Of a stretch of DNA of 64,000 bases, positions 5,327 through 59,264 are shown in pieces (within the stretch, counting starts at the first letter, position 1; every line of letters starts with the position of its first letter). Source of the DNA: Candidatus Aenigmatarchaeota archaeon (GTDB lineage: Archaea > Aenigmatarchaeota > Aenigmatarchaeia > CG10238-14 > SCSR01); the NCBI GenBank assembly GCA_038999725.1, contig JAWBWS010000003.1, positions 1-64,000 of the forward strand, in the 5' to 3' direction. The position numbers and the translations under genes were made by a program. Below the pieces are notes generated by a model. The model had not been told where the DNA came from, ran no database searches, and was given only the letters and a program-made list of their open reading frames with translations.

Positions 5327-6430
5327 CTAACACAATAAATGTAAGTTACCAATTCTAACCCTTTCTAACCCAACTTCTTTAGCAATTTGATAGCATCTCT
5401 CACCAGTCTTATAGCTTGTGAAAGGTAAATCTGCCATCAAAAAAGTTGGGTAAAAAGCCAACAAGCTATAGGGTATTGTTGGGTCTAGTTTTGAGATGAA
5501 TTGGGCTATCTTTCTCACTTCCTCAACTTCAACATAGCCTGGAATTAATAAAGTACTTGCATGTAAAAATGGAACTTCTTTTCTTTTCTTATGAAATTTT
5601 GTTAACATTTTAAAATTCTTTAGTACAAGTTTGTTGCTAATGCCACTTAAAGCTACACTTAACCTTTCATCAAATGCCTTTAAATCAAATTTTATAGTTC
5701 CGCCCGATTCAAGAGCAAACTTTGCAAATTTCTTCAATAGTTTGGGGTTCTGGTTTCCATTGGTTTCTAAACAAACTCTCACTATTTTTTTCTTAGCTTT
5801 TTCCAAAACAAGCCTTGAAGTTTCTATCGCATGCAACAATTGAGGCCCTGGATCTCCACCAAAATAGCAAATGCAACTAACCTTTTCATCAACTTGAGAT
5901 GCTAGATTTTCTGCTGAAATTATTGGTGTCAAATGTTTGATGTTCTCCCTGAAATGCCAGTTTTGGCAAAAAAGACAGTTGAAATTACATGTACCGTAAA
6001 ATACAGCAAGATTATAATAACCATACTCAGGTCCATTTTTATAAGCAAACCTTGGGTATCCACAACCAGTTCCAGCAGGACAGCACCAAGAGGCTACACA
6101 ATTTGTGACATGTGGGTCTAAATACCACTCACAAAGACCTTTTTGAGGAGTTCCAGCATACCTTATCAATTTACCATTAATGTTTTTAACCAAACCACAA
6201 AAACCAGTTTCGCCTATACCAATTTTACAATTATTACCACACATACCACAAAACAACCCATTTTTAGTTTTTGGGATTTTTTCGGGCAAGCTGAACTCTA
6301 TTCTTGATTTAGCATGTACTTCTAGGGAAATTTTTTCAGCCTGTTTGGTGGTTAAAATACAATTTAGACAGAGGCTAAGATAAGAAGAAATGAGGTTTGA
6401 TTCTTTCCCACAAATTTTACAAGTTCCCAT
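5327..6430 (-). CDS. Radical SAM protein, PFL-activating-enzyme-like
   Basis: CNFNCLFCQN motif, GGDP, ETNG, extra N-terminal Cys clusters; start reassigned to MGTCKICG. Confidence 0.9.
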   Translation of the reverse strand: MGTCKICGKESNLISSYLSLCLNCILTTKQAEKISLEVHAKSRIEFSLPEKIPKTKNGLFCGMCGNNCKIGIGETGFCGLVKNINGKLIRYAGTPQKGLCEWYLDPHVTNCVASWCCPAGTGCGYPRFAYKNGPEYGYYNLAVFYGTCNFNCLFCQNWHFRENIKHLTPIISAENLASQVDEKVSCICYFGGDPGPQLLHAIETSRLVLEKAKKKIVRVCLETNGNQNPKLLKKFAKFALESGGTIKFDLKAFDERLSVALSGISNKLVLKNFKMLTKFHKKRKEVPFLHASTLLIPGYVEVEEVRKIAQFISKLDPTIPYSLLAFYPTFLMADLPFTSYKTGERCYQIAKEVGLERVRIGNLHLLC

Positions 6431-31485: not shown

Positions 31486-31992
31486 GTGCTGAAGAAGAGA
31501 GAAAGAGAAGTTTTCATTCAACTTCTGGAAAACGCGAGGGTACCAGACAAACATATAGCCAAGCTACTTAACATAACCCAACCAACCGTCACAAGAATAA
31601 GACAAAGATTGGAGAAAATGGGATACATCAAGAAATACAAGCCCGTGGTTGATTTTCAGAAGTTGGGTATGAGTCTTGTAGCATTAACACTTTTCAGGAT
31701 AGCCGATTTTTCAAAGATAGATGTAAAGGGCAAGATGCTTCCAGATTTAAGTAAAATGCCGCAAGTTTTTTTACTTGCCCAAGGTGAGGGCATGGGTAAA
31801 ACTTCTGTGGTAGGCACAATCCACAAAAGTTTTTCTGATTTTGAGGAATGGATGGCAAGCTTGAGAAAAAAACATGGAAAATATATGGAAGATGTTGAAC
31901 ACTTCATTTTTTCAATCAACAAAATCCAGAAAGAATTTTCCTTGGAAGACGCTGTGATAGATATTCTAAGGAGGGGTCAACTTGGAAAGTAG
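31486..31992 (+). CDS. Lrp/AsnC-family transcriptional regulator
   Basis: LENAR.PD..IAK.L.ITQPTV.RIRQRLE..G.IK.Y; GTG start chosen ~24 nt after TTTAAATA. Confidence 0.85.
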   Translation: MLKKREREVFIQLLENARVPDKHIAKLLNITQPTVTRIRQRLEKMGYIKKYKPVVDFQKLGMSLVALTLFRIADFSKIDVKGKMLPDLSKMPQVFLLAQGEGMGKTSVVGTIHKSFSDFEEWMASLRKKHGKYMEDVEHFIFSINKIQKEFSLEDAVIDILRRGQLGK

Positions 31993-32392
31993 AAAAATTG
32001 CCGAAGAAAGCAAGGTGATGGAAGCAATAAAGGAGATACTGAGGAGGAGGCTTAAAGTCGAGTCACAAGAAGAGCTTGCCACTCTTGTTTTGAGAAAGTT
32101 GAAAAAAGAAGATAAGAGCTACACCTTGTCACCAATAAGGGTGAAGAGAATTGCTTTAAAAATTCCAGAAATTGAAGTTAAGGCTAAGACGAAGAAAACT
32201 TTGAAATTGCCAAAAATAGAAAAATGCCCAATTTGTGAGAGTAAAATAAAGCCTATCAAGATAAAAAATTTAGCCAATCAAGAAATCACAATCGGCTACA
32301 AATGTAGTAGCTGTGGCTATCAGAGCGACTTAGAAGCTTTCATGCCAATGAAGTATGCCTTCCTTCTTAAATCAGCTAAACTAAAAGCTTAA
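31982..32392 (+). CDS. Hypothetical protein with C-terminal Zn ribbon
   Basis: CPIC...CSSCGY. Confidence 0.7.
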   Translation: MESRKIAEESKVMEAIKEILRRRLKVESQEELATLVLRKLKKEDKSYTLSPIRVKRIALKIPEIEVKAKTKKTLKLPKIEKCPICESKIKPIKIKNLANQEITIGYKCSSCGYQSDLEAFMPMKYAFLLKSAKLKA

Positions 32393-32417: not shown

Positions 32418-32696
32418 ATGAAAAGAGAAGAAATATTAGAAATAACAAAAATAAGTTCAAAAGGTCAAATTGTTTTACCTAAGAATATAAGAAAAGAATT
32501 AAATATCAAAAAAGGTAGTTTGTTTGCCCTTACAAAAAAAGGTAAATTAATAATATTAAAGAAAATCGAAAAACCAATTTTGAAAGAAGACCTGATTGCT
32601 CTTAAGAATGTAGAAAAAGCTTGGAGAGAAATAGAAAGTGGAAAATTTAGAAAAGCTAGTAGAGAAGATTTCTTGAAAGAGTTGACCAAATGGTAA
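32418..32696 (+). CDS. AbrB/MazE-type antitoxin
   Basis: TKISSKGQIVLPKNIRKEL. Confidence 0.9.
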   Translation: MKREEILEITKISSKGQIVLPKNIRKELNIKKGSLFALTKKGKLIILKKIEKPILKEDLIALKNVEKAWREIESGKFRKASREDFLKELTKW

Positions 32697-32947
32697 TAAA
32701 AGAGGTAATTTGGACTCAAAAATTTGAGGATGAGTTCAAGAAAGTTAAAGATACTGCTATTAAAGAAAGGATTAAAAAACAAATTGAAAAAATTATTAAA
32801 AATCCTGATGTTGGCAAACCTTTGAGGTTCGAGTTAAAGGGGGAGAGAGCAGTTTACATTAAGTCCTACAGACTTATTTATTCTGCCATCGGAGATAAGT
32901 TATACCTTCTAAGATTTGAGCATAGAAAAAAAGTCTATAGAATTTGA
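32690..32947 (+). CDS. RelE/ParE-family toxin
   Basis: GKPLR..L.G, YRLIY, HRKKVY; overlaps the antitoxin. Confidence 0.9.
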   Translation: MVIKEVIWTQKFEDEFKKVKDTAIKERIKKQIEKIIKNPDVGKPLRFELKGERAVYIKSYRLIYSAIGDKLYLLRFEHRKKVYRI

Positions 32948-55843: not shown

Positions 55844-57208
55844 TTATGCCAGAAACTGCTCCTCATATTTCTTCAAATACTCCACACTTTTCTTCACATC
55901 AACAAAAAGCTTCTCCACATAAACAACATGCTCTTTCTCTATTCTTTCAGCTTTTTTCTCTTTCGCAACTTCAAAGGCAGGAGCCAACAATTGAATTGCA
56001 TACCTCAAGCTAGTTTTACTACCAATTTCAGTTAGATAATCCAAAGCTTCCTCACTAATCTTAATCTTCTCAGATTTTGCTCTTATCTCCAGAATCTTCC
56101 TAATTTCCTCTTTCTCGTAGGGCTTTGTGTTTATTATCAGCAACCTGTCAAGCAAATCCAAAGGCATGCCATGAGCAGCTTTAATGTCAGTTCCCCTTAT
56201 TGTTGCAAACCCCCTGTTTGTTGCAAAAATTATTATCGGAGCCAATTCCTGCTCCAAAGCCCTATTCAAGAAAGCAAAAGTTTCTATGTCGAGCATGCTA
56301 CATTCGTCAATGAAAACAACCCCTGGTATAAGCTCACATTTACCTTCCTGGACCAAAGTTTTTATGTATTCATCAACCTCCTTCCTAACTTCAGGCTCAA
56401 TTTCTTTTGACTCCTTTCCCCCAAAGAACAAGCTGAAGATATCGCTTCCAGCTCGTGAGCTGGCCACATCCAAAGCATGCAGAGTCACAGGATAAACAAA
56501 CTCTTTCTCTTTCAACACTTTCCCCTTTGGCACAGGCACGGGCTTAACTGTTGTTAGATCAACTTTCTTCTCCTTAGCAGCTTCTTCACTTATACCAACC
56601 TTAACTATTCTGCCACCATCCACATCTATGTTCACAACATCCCCTGTTTCTACACCTTGTTGAATCAATTGAATTGCAAAATTTTGGTCCATGGTTAATT
56701 TCTTGCTTTCATCTTTGGTTGCAATTTTTATTGTTGCCCCAACTGGGATTTGCTGATAAGGATTGTAGGGATGTTGAGCTTTTTCTATCGAAATTTCTTT
56801 AACTTCGCCCTCATATATCTTCCTCATCTCATGAATTCTTGCAGCTATGGCCTTTCTCAATGTTTGTGTGAGAAATTCGGTTTTCTTGATATCTGTGGAA
56901 AAAATTTCACTTGCCGCCAAGTGAACAAATGGAACATCTCTCCCCAATTCCCTTGCTATACCGCTTCCAAGAGCAGTCTTTCCTGTTCCAGGTGGTCCGG
57001 CCAACAAAATTGCTCTTCCAGCAAACTTACCTTCTTTTATCAGCCTAACAATCAAGCCAGCAGCCTCTCTTGCTTCTATTTGGCCAACCATTCCATCTGC
57101 TACTGGCTTTGCCTTCAAACCATCAAGACCCAAGCCTTGGATATGTGAATGAGCAGCAACCCTTTCCCACTCGCGCAGAGATTCGGGGATTTCCCTAATC
57201 TCTGCCAT
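55844..57208 (-). CDS. TIP49/RuvBL AAA+ ATPase
   Basis: AAHSHI.GLGL, GPPGTGKT, SEIFS...KKTE, PGVVFIDE, ATNRG, HGMPLDLLDRL, TSLRYA. Confidence 0.95.
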   Translation of the reverse strand: MAEIREIPESLREWERVAAHSHIQGLGLDGLKAKPVADGMVGQIEAREAAGLIVRLIKEGKFAGRAILLAGPPGTGKTALGSGIARELGRDVPFVHLAASEIFSTDIKKTEFLTQTLRKAIAARIHEMRKIYEGEVKEISIEKAQHPYNPYQQIPVGATIKIATKDESKKLTMDQNFAIQLIQQGVETGDVVNIDVDGGRIVKVGISEEAAKEKKVDLTTVKPVPVPKGKVLKEKEFVYPVTLHALDVASSRAGSDIFSLFFGGKESKEIEPEVRKEVDEYIKTLVQEGKCELIPGVVFIDECSMLDIETFAFLNRALEQELAPIIIFATNRGFATIRGTDIKAAHGMPLDLLDRLLIINTKPYEKEEIRKILEIRAKSEKIKISEEALDYLTEIGSKTSLRYAIQLLAPAFEVAKEKKAERIEKEHVVYVEKLFVDVKKSVEYLKKYEEQFLA

Positions 57209-57212
57209 AACC

Positions 57213-57833
57213 TCACCTTTCAATCTCTATTTTTAGCACACCATCTTTAAATTTTTTACTTATGCTTACATTCTTTGGAATCGGAATCAGTTTGAAATAA
57301 GCCTTATCGCCAGCAAAAGCCTTCACTTCTATACTCTGCTCCAATCTCTTAACCTCTATATCTTCCTCACTTTTAACATCAGGCAGTTTTATAAGTATTA
57401 TCTGTTTGTTTCCTATGGTTTGAACTTCTGACTCAGGCTCTTCTGTAACTTTTGGCACTTTAACTTCCTTCTCCTCTTCTTCAACCTCTTCTACAGCAGG
57501 CCTAACGCCAAGCCTTCTTTTTAGTTCTGGTTCAAGTTTTTTGTATTCACCAGAAGTCTTTATTTCAATTTTTGGTTTCATTCCTCTACCACTGTGAACG
57601 GTTATGCTAATGCCCCCGCCCCTAATCCCAGGCTTTATCTTGAAGCTTGGTATCTTGAAAAAATCAAACCCGAACATCTTGTCTATCTCTTTAAGCTCTT
57701 TATCTATATCATCAAAAATGCTCTCAAAAGGAGCCTCTTCTTCAATCTCCCACCCACAATAAGGGCAAAAATTCCAATCTTCTTTTATTTTTTTACCACA
57801 CTTGGGACAAACCTTTTTTTCAAACATAGACAA
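57213..57833 (-). CDS. Zn-ribbon plus Hsp20/CS-like domain protein
   Basis: CPKCG..WNFCPYCG; C-terminal EPES..IKLPDV..DIEV..F.DGVL.I. Confidence 0.8.
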   Translation of the reverse strand: MSMFEKKVCPKCGKKIKEDWNFCPYCGWEIEEEAPFESIFDDIDKELKEIDKMFGFDFFKIPSFKIKPGIRGGGISITVHSGRGMKPKIEIKTSGEYKKLEPELKRRLGVRPAVEEVEEEEKEVKVPKVTEEPESEVQTIGNKQIILIKLPDVKSEEDIEVKRLEQSIEVKAFAGDKAYFKLIPIPKNVSISKKFKDGVLKIEIER

Positions 57834-57947
57834 CCATCCAATTGTGTTTAAACTTGAAATATTTTTGTTTACAAGATATAAATTTCTTTTACATTCAAAA
57901 CAATTTTCATTTAAATACTTGAAAATAAAAATTTAATTGTGGAAAAA

Positions 57948-58103
57948 ATGGGTAAGAAACCTTTTGGTGGATATTCGATTTGCTTTAAAGGAAGGAAGGA
58001 AACCCTTGAACAAGTATTTGGTACAGCTCCTCTGACCCCAAGTGCGATGACGAAAAAGCTTTGGGCTTTTGTGAAAGCTAAAAAACTGGCAAAGAAAGAA
58101 TAG
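57948..58103 (+). CDS. 51-aa basic SWIB/MDM2-like half-domain protein (not in ORF track)
   Basis: MGKKPFGGYSICFKGRKETLEQVFGTAPLTPSAMTKKLWAFVKAKKLAKKE; TTTAAATA at 57910-57917. Confidence 0.7.
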   Translation: MGKKPFGGYSICFKGRKETLEQVFGTAPLTPSAMTKKLWAFVKAKKLAKKE

Positions 58104-58151
58104 AGTCGAAGAGAAGTTAAAAATTCTTTTGTTTGTGCTTAGCCAAAATTA

Positions 58152-58484
58152 TCAAAACCTCTTCATCTTTCTTGAAATTTCAATTCCTTTCTTCTTCTCT
58201 TTCTTCAAGCTTTTCCCAATTTTTTTACCAAGCCTCTCAAACAAAAGCTTGAGAGCAGAAGGAATGTCCCAACCATAAGCTTTGGCCACAAAAATTTTGT
58301 CGGAAGCTTTAACCTTAGCGTGAAAGGAATACTTCTTCCTTCCAGCAGGGCTATGTACATCAACATCAAGCTTTAAGCTTGTTATCTTCCAAATTTTTTC
58401 AAATTTTTTCAAGAATTTGCTAACTTCTTCTTCTATTTCAAATTTCTCTGGAATTGGTGCATGAGAAATCTCAACTTGAACCAT
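58152..58484 (-). CDS. Stand-alone HPF/RaiA-like domain protein
   Basis: G.KKYS.HAKV....FVAKA.GWD...AL..L..RL.K.I pattern. Confidence 0.6.
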   Translation of the reverse strand: MVQVEISHAPIPEKFEIEEEVSKFLKKFEKIWKITSLKLDVDVHSPAGRKKYSFHAKVKASDKIFVAKAYGWDIPSALKLLFERLGKKIGKSLKKEKKKGIEISRKMKRF

Positions 58485-58514: not shown

Positions 58515-59264
58515 TCACTCTTCCTCAACTCTTGGTGCAAGCACAAAATTCAAGGTGAGCTTATCCTTAACTTCAAAACTCATTTTAAGAGGATAGTCTT
58601 GAGACCATTCCAACACGACAAAATCGCTAAGCTTTGTGGCTTTCACCATTTTCTTCAAGTACTCTAAAGGATACCTTGCCTTCACGCTTCCTGTAGCTTT
58701 TAGTTCCACCAAAGCTTTGTTTCCTTTTTCAAGCTCAAGCTGGTTGGAACTTATATCACCCTCAGCCCTCATCAAAAACTTGGAGGAAGAGGCTTCAAAA
58801 ACTATGGTGTCTGCAGTAACTTCGGCATCAGCAATTCCAGTTTCAAGAACGTCTGAACTTAGTTGTGCTTTTGTCGTGAATTCAAGCTGATCTATTCTTG
58901 GGATTTCCTCTTGGCTTAGCTCCAGCAAGGGCAACACAAACCTCCTCTTGCTAGAATTCTCGAAAATGATTTCGAGTTTTGAATCTTGTAAGTTAAAGAT
59001 TACCTTATCGTCTCCTCTTGCCCTCTTCAAGACTGAAAGGAAATTTGAAATATCCAAACCAATTGACTGCTCTTTATCAATCTCATATTCCTCAAAAGCA
59101 AGGGAAGAAATTTTGAAATCAACAGCGGCAACCATTGCTCTATCAGAAGCTATCAAACTTATACCATCTTTCGCTAGCTTGAAGACACCCTCATCTATAA
59201 GTTCAGCTATTGTAGAAATGGAGTTCACAAGCAAGCCCACATCTTTAAGAGTTGCTTTAAACAT
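58515..59264 (-). CDS. pcn: PCNA sliding clamp
   Basis: MFKATL, LIDEG.F, DR.MV, DYPL, LAPRVE. Confidence 0.97.
   Translation of the reverse strand: MFKATLKDVGLLVNSISTIAELIDEGVFKLAKDGISLIASDRAMVAAVDFKISSLAFEEYEIDKEQSIGLDISNFLSVLKRARGDDKVIFNLQDSKLEIIFENSSKRRFVLPLLELSQEEIPRIDQLEFTTKAQLSSDVLETGIADAEVTADTIVFEASSSKFLMRAEGDISSNQLELEKGNKALVELKATGSVKARYPLEYLKKMVKATKLSDFVVLEWSQDYPLKMSFEVKDKLTLNFVLAPRVEEE

What the first reader, a model, noticed from the sequence alone, without database searches (positions are those of the whole stretch)
57948..58103. Unannotated 51-aa 'half-SWIB' protein beside TIP49 and PCNA
Seen: a clean basic ORF with its own TATA box, missed by the ORF track, with core LEQVFGTAPLTPSAMTKKLWAFVKAKKL. 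Knowledge: SWIB/MDM2 domains (BAF60, stand-alone bacterial/chlamydial SWIB) are ~80-aa folds built from two pseudo-symmetric halves. As I recall the consensus, these are L..iiG..p..R.e..KklW.YIK...L and L..vFG......f.mtk. Inference: this ORF has features of both halves but is only one half long, so it could homodimerise into a symmetric SWIB fold. It would then be an archaeal chromatin or nucleoid protein, or a minimal ancestor-like SWIB. It is divergent from the Zn/CS-TIP49 pair, and both families are chromatin-remodeller components in eukaryotes.
Basis: partly seen in the sequence, partly recalled or inferred. Interest (0 to 1): 0.8.

Follow-up and report, generated by a model that had tools for sequence, protein, structure and literature searches.

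The report
Conserved 51-residue half-SWIB protein
This small basic archaeal gene encodes only the first half of a SWIB/MDM2 domain and probably pairs with itself to rebuild the whole fold, which makes it a natural test case for how symmetric protein folds arise.

Summary
The ORF is real: 57948..58103 (+), 51 aa, pI 10.15. It is conserved, with 235 homologues found, 73 of 201 genomes of its phylum holding it, and dN/dS of 0.04-0.13. It is homologous to the N-terminal half of SWIB/MDM2. Pfam SWIB gives E 1.9e-4 over profile positions 7-39 of 74, below the gathering score. A profile-profile comparison against 90-aa bacterial SWIB proteins gives 97.7% probability, E 1.5e-12. The genome holds one copy and no full-length SWIB.

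A two-copy model passes the tool's mark (ipSAE 0.54, best control 0.00). Natural 96-aa proteins made of two such units are predicted to fold as a complete SWIB/MDM2 domain (Z up to 9.6). The top 11 hits of an unbiased PDB search are all SWIB-fold chains.

Not supported:
- A functional link to TIP49 or PCNA. Their adjacency is not conserved.
- An equal likeness to both halves. It is overwhelmingly N-half-like.

Whether it is ancestral or a secondary truncation is unresolved. A nucleoid or DNA-binding role is inferred only by analogy. Two same-genus genomes carry a 5'-truncated remnant, so the gene is dispensable.

The parts
57948..58103 (+). CDS of the 51-aa half-SWIB protein (stop TAG 58101-58103). 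Predicted elements: short helix 5-8, strand 9-11, helix 20-24, helix 31-44, strand 48-50.
   Evidence: ORF; conservation; purifying selection; SWIB N-half homology; AF2 model, pLDDT 93.1.
57910..57917 (+). TATA-like box TTTAAATA, 31-38 nt upstream of the ATG. It implies a very short 5' leader (inferred).
   Evidence: Read directly. TTTAAA-type boxes lie upstream of the orthologues in L057, L087, L003, L088, L093 and L089. Many relatives also carry a GGAGG Shine-Dalgarno motif 6-8 nt before the ATG, which the window has only in part. Promoter function was not tested.
57939..57947 (+). Alternative in-frame GTG start, adding 3 codons. Probably not used.
   Evidence: One search lists the 54-aa GTG form. 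Homologues begin at the ATG-equivalent position.
58124..58135 (+). T-rich tract (TTCTTTTGTTTG) 21 nt after the stop. Possible archaeal oligo-T terminator (inferred from sequence only).
   Evidence: Read directly. Not tested.

Best explanation
The ORF is a genuine, selectively maintained gene for a 5.7-kDa basic protein. The protein is homologous to the N-terminal half (strand, short helix, loop, long TKKLW-type helix) of the SWIB/MDM2 domain and ends where the second half would begin.

One half cannot bury the hydrophobic core of the fold. The most likely working form is therefore a two-fold symmetric homodimer that rebuilds a SWIB-like domain from two identical chains. This is inferred from a passing two-copy model and from natural two-unit fusions that are predicted to fold as SWIB.

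The function is inferred by analogy only. I commit to a small nucleoid-associated protein. Its invariant lysines on the long helix, and the K/R-rich N-terminal tails found in many family members, would contact nucleic acid. The symmetric cleft may in addition hold a helix of a partner protein.

The gene is accessory, not essential.
For: Real gene:
- 235 homologues at E<=0.01, with 67-94% identity among the 120 listed.
- 156 clusters at 50% identity with E<=1e-3 among 1.84 billion representatives.
- 73 of 201 genomes of the phylum hold it, in lineage-coherent blocks: f15 15/16, f17 12/12, f22 6/6, f1 25/41, f2 0/12, f19 0/23.
- dN 0.04-0.24 with dS saturated or 1.0-2.5. dN/dS is 0.04-0.13 in the 10 of 21 pairs where it could be computed.

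SWIB N-half homology:
- PF02201 E 1.9e-4, residues 18-50 on profile positions 7-39 of 74.
- 96 of 126 members hit SWIB at E<=0.01.
- hhalign against 18 canonical bacterial SWIB proteins gives 97.7%, E 1.5e-12, aligned to residues 22-58 of 91.
- Against the N-half alone the result is P 4.8e-18.

No partner half in the genome: one copy and no full-length SWIB in the 93%-complete genome.

Dimer:
- Two copies score ipSAE 0.54 against a best control of 0.00. The mark was reached by 20 of 30 proteins solved as pairs of one chain and by 1 of 23 solved as single chains.
- The three runs agree in at least 98% of contacts, and partner pLDDT is at least 79.
- The interface (8-21, 23-31, 34-35, 38, 41-42, 48-49) holds most of the conserved hydrophobic positions: Y9, I11, F13, L20, V23, F24, M34, L38, F41, V42.

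Two units make a SWIB fold:
- The natural 96-aa tandem P0189 has both repeats N-type, each starting with the family's FGG motif.
- Its AF2 model has pLDDT 81.3.
- Foldseek's top hits are all SWIB/MDM2, led by 1v31 with TM 0.63 over 77 columns.
- VIA gives Z 9.6 with rmsd 2.9 over 86 residues to BAF60.
- In the unbiased search of 48,161 chains the top 11 are all SWIB-fold, Z 9.4 to 4.0, and the next hit is at 3.2.

Function by analogy:
- The stand-alone bacterial SWIB protein Wcw_0377 binds heparin and gives genome-wide ChIP-seq signal (PMC6426960, passages read).
- Plastid SWIB-4 binds and compacts DNA and complements an E. coli hns mutant (review PMC4154389, passages read).
- Net charge is +9.
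- 45 of 126 members carry N-terminal extensions of 15 aa or more. Their median K+R content is 23% and their median D+E content 5%.
Against: - No experiment and no dimer coordinates are available. The dimer was not superposed on SWIB, and the pass may reflect the model's memory of the SWIB fold (caveat stated).
- The AF2 monomer is itself confident (pLDDT 93.1), so a monomer is not excluded.
- Monomer fold searches gave nothing significant. The best SWIB-type row was MDM2 3iux at rank 5 with E 6.9, and no SWIB chain was among the 15 rows at Z>=2.
- P0001 scores below Pfam's gathering cut-off (21.6 against 25 bits).
- Gene neighbourhood gives no functional signal. It differs between lineages: amidohydrolase-RibD_C-gene-hemerythrin in Nitrosopumilaceae, and luciferase-like, HAD or peptidase S11 genes in Methylomirabilota.
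- Two same-genus genomes hold only a 5'-truncated remnant with an in-frame stop, and a third has none. Any role is therefore dispensable.
- DNA binding is an analogy drawn from full-length SWIB proteins.
Confidence: 0.6

Rival explanations
1. The homodimer is mainly a peptide-binding adaptor rather than a DNA binder. Its symmetric hydrophobic cleft would clamp an amphipathic helix of one or more partner proteins, as MDM2 clamps p53. The basic surface would be secondary.
For: The two-unit relative superposes on MDM2/MDMX peptide complexes at Z 8.0-8.9 over 75-83 residues. The conserved hydrophobic residues of the long helix (M34, L38, F41, V42) lie in the predicted interface or cleft region. 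SWIB domains in BAF60 and RSC6 are protein-protein modules within larger complexes (titles of the hits).
Against: No conserved neighbouring gene suggests a partner. The strongly basic composition and the K/R-rich tails fit nucleic-acid binding better. No partner was tested.
Confidence: 0.22
2. It acts on the translation apparatus or on RNA, like the SWIB-type domain of eIF2D on the 40S subunit. On this reading its position next to an S30AE/HPF-like gene would be meaningful.
For: The eIF2D C-terminal region is among the best structural matches of the two-unit form: 5w2f at Z 8.9, rmsd 1.9, 80 residues. A 110-aa S30AE/HPF-like ORF (E 1.3e-4, below the cut-off) lies convergent at 58152..58484. 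The protein is small and very basic.
Against: The HPF-like neighbour was found next to the gene in 0 of 80 loci and 0 of 11 in-phylum loci. In L043 the gene abuts PCNA directly. Sequence identity to eIF2D is only 11%. The gene's patchy distribution (73 of 201 genomes) does not fit a core translation factor.
Confidence: 0.07
3. It functions as a monomer or in a hetero-oligomer with an unrelated protein. The predicted homodimer would then be an artefact of the model recognising SWIB-like halves.
For: The AF2 monomer model is confident on its own: pLDDT 93.1, with an intrachain pairing of strands 9-11 and 48-50. The complex tool warns that passes can come from likeness to solved folds, and that up to 19 in 100 single chains may reach the mark.
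Against: Controls scored 0.00 against 0.54. A 45-residue unit with this many conserved hydrophobic residues is unlikely to be stable alone. Independent natural fusions of two units exist. There is no second half-like gene in the genome.
Confidence: 0.1
4. It is a decaying fragment of a once full-length SWIB gene and has no function of its own.
For: It ends exactly where the second half of canonical SWIB begins. Two same-genus genomes carry a further truncated remnant.
Against: The same 48-52-aa length is kept across 32 archaeal and 26 bacterial loci among the best 58, and in 73 genomes of the phylum. dN/dS is 0.04-0.13. There are 18 invariant positions in the 24-sequence alignment. No room or remnant of a second half exists downstream: 48 nt separate it from the next gene.
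Confidence: 0.01

Closest known systems
Stand-alone bacterial SWIB/MDM2 proteins of about 90 aa (for example Waddlia Wcw_0377 and Chlamydia CT460; here 18 examples from Gemmatimonadota, Acidobacteriota, Verrucomicrobiota and others, alignment A4)
   Same: The N-terminal strand, helix 1, loop and long helix are clearly homologous (hhalign 97.7%, E 1.5e-12, 38% identity over 37 columns, shared TKKLW-x-[YF]-[IV]-K motif). Both are small and basic and often carry K/A/R-rich N-terminal tails. Wcw_0377 is DNA-associated genome-wide (PMC6426960, passages read).
   Different: The window's protein stops after the long helix. It lacks the whole second half, about 37 residues. It carries a family-specific FGG[YM] motif and a 3-residue insertion before helix 1. 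To make the fold it must use two chains.
Natural two-unit proteins of 89-100 aa (P0189, P0272-P0281, P0226, P0194, P0239)
   Same: Each repeat is an N-type unit with the FGG motif. hhalign of the half-SWIB family against them gives 98.6%, E 1.1e-15. They are predicted to fold as a complete SWIB domain.
   Different: They are one chain with two units rather than two chains. They lack the 3-residue insertion. Their organisms are unknown, as no names are on record. No fused two-unit form was seen in the 201 genomes of the window's phylum; G126 carries two separate copies about 320 nt apart.
Eukaryotic SWIB/MDM2 domains (BAF60/SMARCD, RSC6/Snf12, MDM2/MDMX, eIF2D, plant At5g14170, plastid SWIB-4)
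   Same: The fold is the same for the two-unit form: Z 8-9.6 over 77-87 residues. There is weak direct sequence likeness to 1v31 and UAF30 (E 0.044 and 0.22). Plastid SWIB-4 is a 12-kDa basic DNA-compacting protein (review PMC4154389, passages read).
   Different: Those are single-chain, pseudo-symmetric domains, usually embedded in larger proteins or complexes. Sequence identity is only 11-23%. No remodeller ATPase partner is implied here.

Membership tests
SWIB/MDM2 domain (Pfam PF02201) | Whole-protein score at or above Pfam's gathering cut-off (25 bits) | tested here: not met
   P0001 scores 21.6 bits, E 1.9e-4. 96 of 126 family members match at E<=0.01, best 3.9e-8. Some homologues carry a precomputed PF02201 hit.
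SWIB/MDM2 domain (Pfam PF02201) | Homology to SWIB shown by profile-profile comparison | tested here: met
   hhalign of A2 against canonical bacterial SWIB (A4) gives 97.7%, E 1.5e-12 over 37 columns, N-half only. Against the N-half alone P is 4.8e-18, and against the C-half alone P is 2.1e-5.
SWIB/MDM2 domain (Pfam PF02201) | A complete domain of about 74-80 residues with both pseudo-symmetric halves in one chain | tested here: not met
   The protein has 51 aa and covers profile positions 7-39 of 74. It aligns to residues 22-58 of a 91-aa SWIB protein. Only 48 nt follow before the next gene.
SWIB/MDM2 domain (Pfam PF02201) | SWIB/MDM2 three-dimensional fold | tested here: inconclusive
   The monomer model is too small for a significant match. 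The natural two-unit relative matches SWIB/MDM2 at Z up to 9.6, and the top 11 of 48,161 chains are SWIB-fold. The homodimer passes the binding mark, but no coordinates were available to superpose.
SWIB/MDM2 domain (Pfam PF02201) | Conserved Trp-centred helix motif (KKLW-x-[YF]-[IV]-K) | tested here: met
   W39 is present in 99% and K36 in 90% of 126 members. The same motif is invariant in canonical bacterial SWIB and is aligned to it.
Nucleoid-associated proteins (functional class, not a sequence family) | Binds DNA with low sequence specificity and is abundant on the nucleoid | not testable with these tools
   Only analogy supports this: Wcw_0377 (PMC6426960) and SWIB-4 (PMC4154389), together with pI 10.15 and the K/R-rich tails in relatives.

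The most novel reading that the evidence does not exclude
The half-SWIB family is a living representative of the pre-duplication stage of the SWIB/MDM2 fold. On this reading a homodimeric 45-residue unit gave rise to the single-chain, pseudo-symmetric domain of bacteria and eukaryotes by duplication and fusion. The natural two-unit (N-type plus N-type) proteins would be independent re-runs of that step. The family could then also be a previously unrecognised small chromatin protein of DPANN and ammonia-oxidising archaea.
Probability: 0.2. Interest if true: 0.8.

Novelty: new variant of a known kind. Interest (0 to 1): 0.6.

Why it matters
Many symmetric folds are thought to have arisen from homo-oligomeric half-units by duplication and fusion, but extant half-units are rarely found. 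Here three forms of one fold co-exist in nature: a conserved single half, re-fused double halves, and the classical asymmetric domain. That makes the pathway directly testable by structure determination and domain-swap experiments.

The family is also widespread in ecologically important uncultured or slow-growing groups: Nitrosopumilales, DPANN archaea and Methylomirabilota. In these groups nucleoid proteins are poorly known. If it binds DNA it would add a new type of small archaeal chromatin protein.

The 51-aa size also shows how short genes escape ORF tracks.

Tried and rejected
- Monomer fold searches were uninformative. Foldseek against PDB gave no match at E<=0.001, with MDM2 3iux only at rank 5 (E 6.9). 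VIA-align over 48,161 chains gave a best Z of 2.5, and no SWIB chain was among the 15 rows listed. A 51-residue half-domain is too small for these methods.
- NCBIfam gave only weak hits to the SWIB tails of topoisomerase fusion proteins, E 0.023 to 3.4e-4, far below the cut-offs.
- A PDB sequence-profile search gave only marginal SWIB hits: 1v31 at E 0.044 and UAF30 at E 0.22.
- Conserved synteny with TIP49/Zn-CS was rejected. It was found in 0 of 80 loci and 0 of 11 in-phylum loci. PCNA adjacency was seen only in L043 and L057.
- A Pfam scan of 126 neighbouring ORFs from 47 family loci found no neighbour shared across lineages.
- A mainly viral or mobile gene was rejected. Only 2 close and 4 distant matches were found in 2.9 million viral contigs, and 1 distant match for the two-unit form.
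- Expression: no RNA holder was listed for the stretch.
- The earlier-findings look-up returned nothing.
- The unit tree has 106 rows and 43 columns. Every third row of A2 was used, giving 42 of 126. The C-half clade (SH-aLRT 95) separates from all N-type units. The order among the half-SWIB, canonical N-half and tandem repeats is an unresolved polytomy, so 'ancestral' against 'truncated' could not be decided.
- Names or organisms for the two-unit proteins: none are on record.
- Literature: SWIB+archaea gave 34 papers, and none of the 20 listed is about an archaeal SWIB protein, judged by title and start of abstract. SWIB+Thaumarchaeota gave 1 paper, a soil survey. A search combining 'SWIB domain' with homodimer, pseudo-symmetry and duplication listed 15 of 8,158 papers, none on a half-SWIB. 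For SWIB combined with Nitrosopumilus, DPANN, Aenigmarchaeota, Nitrososphaera or Methylomirabilis, none of the 40 listed papers contains 'SWIB'. I found no description of a half-length SWIB family in these searches. Subscription journals are not covered.
- A non-coding RNA under the ORF was rejected: no Rfam match overlaps it at E<=1.

Full report
OBSERVATION. A GTG three codons upstream is also in frame. Homologues begin at the position of the ATG with MGKK/MAKK. The product is 5.7 kDa with 12 K+R against 3 D+E and pI 10.15.

A TTTAAATA box lies at 57910-57917, and a T-rich tract follows the stop at 58124-58135. Similar TTTAAA boxes precede the orthologues in relatives. Many of those also have a GGAGG ribosome-binding site.

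The neighbours are as stated:
- TIP49 at 55844..57223 (-), E 8.6e-135.
- A zinc-ribbon protein with a weak PIH1-CS-like hit at 57213..57833 (-).
- An S30AE/HPF-like ORF at 58152..58484 (-), E 1.3e-4, below the cut-off.
- PCNA at 58515..59264 (-).

No ORF of 30 aa or more lies on the opposite strand under the gene, and no Rfam family matches it.

IT IS A REAL, CONSTRAINED GENE. A word-indexed search found 235 proteins at E<=0.01. The 120 listed share 67-94% identity with the query. Most are 49-55 aa, or 60-85 aa with an added basic N-terminal tail. An exhaustive HMMER search of 1.84 billion cluster representatives found 156 clusters at E<=1e-3 and 30 at E<=1e-10. A 24-sequence alignment has 18 invariant positions.

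Among species-representative genomes, the best 58 loci are 32 archaeal and 26 bacterial, counted from the record titles:
- Archaeal: Aenigmatarchaeota 6, Nitrosopumilaceae and other ammonia oxidisers 13, Micrarchaeota 3, Nanoarchaeota 1, Iainarchaeum 1, unnamed archaea 8.
- Bacterial: Methylomirabilota/Rokubacteria/NC10 16, and single or double cases in Acidobacteria, Nitrospira, Deltaproteobacteria, Myxococcales, Planctomycetales, Pseudomonadota, Falkowbacteria and an unnamed bacterium.

In the window's own phylum, 73 of 201 sampled genomes have it, and 37 of the 92 high-quality ones. Presence follows lineage: f15 15/16, f17 12/12, f22 6/6, f1 25/41, f13 5/17, f2 0/12, f19 0/23. It is nearly always a single copy.

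Codon comparison of seven gap-free orthologues gives dN 0.04-0.24. dS is saturated in 11 of 21 pairs and 1.0-2.5 in the other 10, where dN/dS is 0.04-0.13.

The window's genome is 730 kb, 93% complete and comes from hot-spring metagenomes. It has one copy and no full-length SWIB gene.

RELATION TO SWIB. Pfam SWIB (PF02201) is the only family with a meaningful hit. It gives E 1.9e-4 and 21.6 bits against a gathering score of 25, with residues 18-50 on profile positions 7-39 of 74. Of 126 family members, 96 hit SWIB at E<=0.01.

I extracted 18 canonical bacterial SWIB proteins, mostly 86-138 aa, from loci that the DNA scan had also picked up. The family profile aligns to them at 97.7% probability, E 1.5e-12, over 37 columns. 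These correspond to residues 22-58 of a 91-aa protein, that is helix 1, the loop and the long Trp-containing helix of the first half.

I then cut the canonical alignment into halves:
- Family profile against the N-half: score 74.2, P 4.8e-18.
- Family profile against the C-half: score 23.9, P 2.1e-5.
- Canonical N-half against C-half: score 20.2, P 2.6e-4.

So the protein is an N-half homologue. It is about what the ancient internal repeat of SWIB itself shows. That SWIB/MDM2 is built of two pseudo-symmetric halves is recalled from the MDM2 structure literature. It is consistent and with the repeated secondary-structure pattern.

STRUCTURE. With a 126-sequence alignment, AlphaFold2 gives a confident monomer: pLDDT 93.1, with helix 5-8, strand 9-11, helix 20-24, helix 31-44 and strand 48-50. 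The model is too small for fold searches to say anything.

Two copies were folded with controls. The score was 0.54 (runs 0.55, 0.53, 0.54) against a best control of 0.00. The tool's mark was reached by 20 of 30 proteins solved as pairs of one chain and by 1 of 23 solved as single chains. The runs share at least 98% of contacts, and partner pLDDT is at least 79. The interface is symmetric: residues 19 and 20 of one chain touch the same residues of the other. It contains most of the conserved hydrophobic positions. This is what is expected if the hydrophobic core of the fold is formed between chains. The tool warns that such a pass may reflect likeness to solved folds. It supports binding but does not show it.

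An independent line of evidence is natural. The exhaustive search found 89-100-aa proteins with two matches to the query, and a further search found ten more. In the main group of 12 (P0189 and its ten relatives, plus P0226), both repeats are N-type units beginning with the family's FGG motif. P0194 and P0239 are more divergent. The half-SWIB profile matches this set at 98.6%, E 1.1e-15.

The AF2 model of one of them, P0189, has pLDDT 81.3 and is a complete SWIB/MDM2 domain:
- Foldseek's top rows are SWIB/MDM2-fold chains: 1v31 with TM 0.63, then RSC6, BAF60a, MDM2 and eIF2D.
- VIA-align gives Z 9.6, rmsd 2.9, 86 residues for BAF60.
- In a search of 48,161 representative chains that does not depend on Foldseek, the first 11 rows are all SWIB-fold proteins (Z 9.4 to 4.0), and the next row is at 3.2.

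Two N-type units can therefore build the fold. That the window's protein does so as a homodimer is an inference from this result.

CONTEXT AND FUNCTION. The TIP49/Zn-CS pair and the HPF-like gene were found beside the gene in none of 80 related loci and none of 11 in-phylum loci. PCNA, with the OB-fold, TFS and signal-peptidase genes behind it, recurs in two Aenigmatarchaeota loci, L043 and L057.

Elsewhere the neighbourhood changes with lineage:
- Nitrosopumilaceae: amidohydrolase, RibD_C, the gene, hemerythrin.
- Methylomirabilota: luciferase-like monooxygenase, HAD hydrolase and peptidase S11.
- Other DPANN: TFIIB, Cdc6, Nre, PIN or DNA-methylase genes.

The functional proposal rests on analogy and composition. 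Stand-alone SWIB proteins that have been studied are DNA-associated. Waddlia Wcw_0377 binds heparin and gives ChIP-seq signal along the whole genome (PMC6426960, passages). Plastid SWIB-4 binds and compacts DNA and complements an E. coli hns mutant (review PMC4154389, passages). The window's protein has net charge +9 and near-invariant lysines on the long helix: K36 in 90% and K43 in 88% of members. Of 126 relatives, 45 add N-terminal tails of 15 aa or more that are K/R-rich and nearly free of acidic residues.

I therefore favour a small nucleoid-associated homodimer. A peptide-clamping adaptor in the MDM2 manner is the main rival, and a translation-related role in the eIF2D manner is a minor one.

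EVOLUTION. A tree of 106 units was built on 43 columns: 42 of the 126 half-SWIB rows (every third), 14+14 tandem repeats, and 18+18 canonical halves. It separates the canonical C-half (SH-aLRT 95) from all N-type units. It recovers the half-SWIB group (86), the canonical N-half (96) and the two tandem repeats (90, 98) as separate groups in an unresolved polytomy. One tandem protein's first repeat (P0194) falls inside the half-SWIB group, and another's second repeat (P0239) falls with the canonical N-half, which hints at more than one fusion event.

The data do not tell whether the half-SWIB is a survivor of the pre-duplication stage or a secondary truncation of a full-length bacterial-type SWIB. 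Its much greater likeness to the N-half than to the C-half fits truncation somewhat better. It is also expected if the C-half simply diverged faster.

EVIDENCE AGAINST, AND LIMITS. P0001 is below Pfam's cut-off. There are no dimer coordinates, no expression data (no RNA run listed) and no experiment.

The gene is dispensable. It is missing from 128 of 201 genomes of the phylum. In two genomes of the window's own genus the first 15 codons are replaced by the 3' end of a 133-aa zinc-ribbon gene. The orthologue of that gene lies far away in this genome, at 31982..32392. What remains is an in-frame stop and no start before the sole remaining ATG, the Met34 codon. A third genome of the genus has no match.

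COMPARISON AND NOVELTY. The protein works like, and is homologous to, half of a SWIB domain. It fails two membership features of PF02201: the gathering score, and a complete two-half domain in one chain. I file it as a new variant of a known kind.

Some database entries already carry automatic SWIB labels. In five literature searches I found no description of a half-length, presumably homodimeric SWIB family, nor of SWIB-type proteins in DPANN or ammonia-oxidising archaea. Only open-access papers and preprints were covered, and no supplements were consulted.

Noticed in passing
window 55844..57833 (-): A full-length TIP49/RuvBL-type ATPase (E 8.6e-135) overlaps by 11 nt a 206-aa protein with an N-terminal zinc ribbon and a weak PIH1-CS-like hit (E 0.023, residues 120-186). 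This may be a minimal R2TP-like pair in a 730-kb DPANN genome.
   Followed up: no
window 58152..58484 (-): A 110-aa ORF has a sub-threshold Ribosomal_S30AE/HPF hit (E 1.3e-4, 23.1 against 23.7 bits), which is unusual for an archaeon. It is 83-86% conserved in two same-genus genomes, where it lies directly next to TIP49.
   Followed up: partly
L105 2141..2255 and L104 (same-genus genomes G055, G162); window 31982..32392: In two same-genus genomes the half-SWIB gene has lost its first 15 codons to the 3' end of a 133-aa zinc-ribbon gene. An in-frame stop precedes residue 16. The zinc-ribbon gene's orthologue lies 26 kb away in the window, so a rearrangement truncated the gene.
   Followed up: yes
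G126:C2:5649-5813 and 6133-6294: One genome of the phylum carries two separate copies of the half-SWIB gene about 320 nt apart on the same strand. This is a possible intermediate between the single gene and the fused two-unit forms.
   Followed up: no
L019 2814-3911 and L026 2831-3943: An Iainarchaeum locus and a Falkowbacteria (CPR bacterium) locus both have a 366-371-aa N6/N4 DNA methylase directly upstream of the half-SWIB gene. This may be a shared two-gene cassette moved between domains, or a binning error.
   Followed up: no
L011, L022, L050, L053; L009, L017, L022, L024, L036, L042, L050: In Methylomirabilota/Rokubacteria-type loci the gene is repeatedly flanked by a luciferase-like monooxygenase upstream and by a HAD hydrolase and/or a D-Ala-D-Ala carboxypeptidase (S11) downstream. 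L009 also has an HU-domain protein.
   Followed up: no
proteins P0160, P0137, P0244, P0257, P0256, P0248: Rare longer architectures carry one or two half-SWIB units. They include a 224-aa protein with two units, and 182-261-aa proteins with a unit at the N- or C-terminus next to lysine-rich or unrelated regions. Some may be ORF over-extensions in high-GC contigs.
   Followed up: no
window 32418..32947 (+): Two small overlapping ORFs (92 and 85 aa) look by eye like an antitoxin-toxin pair of the AbrB/RelE type. That label is recalled and was not tested with any tool.
   Followed up: no
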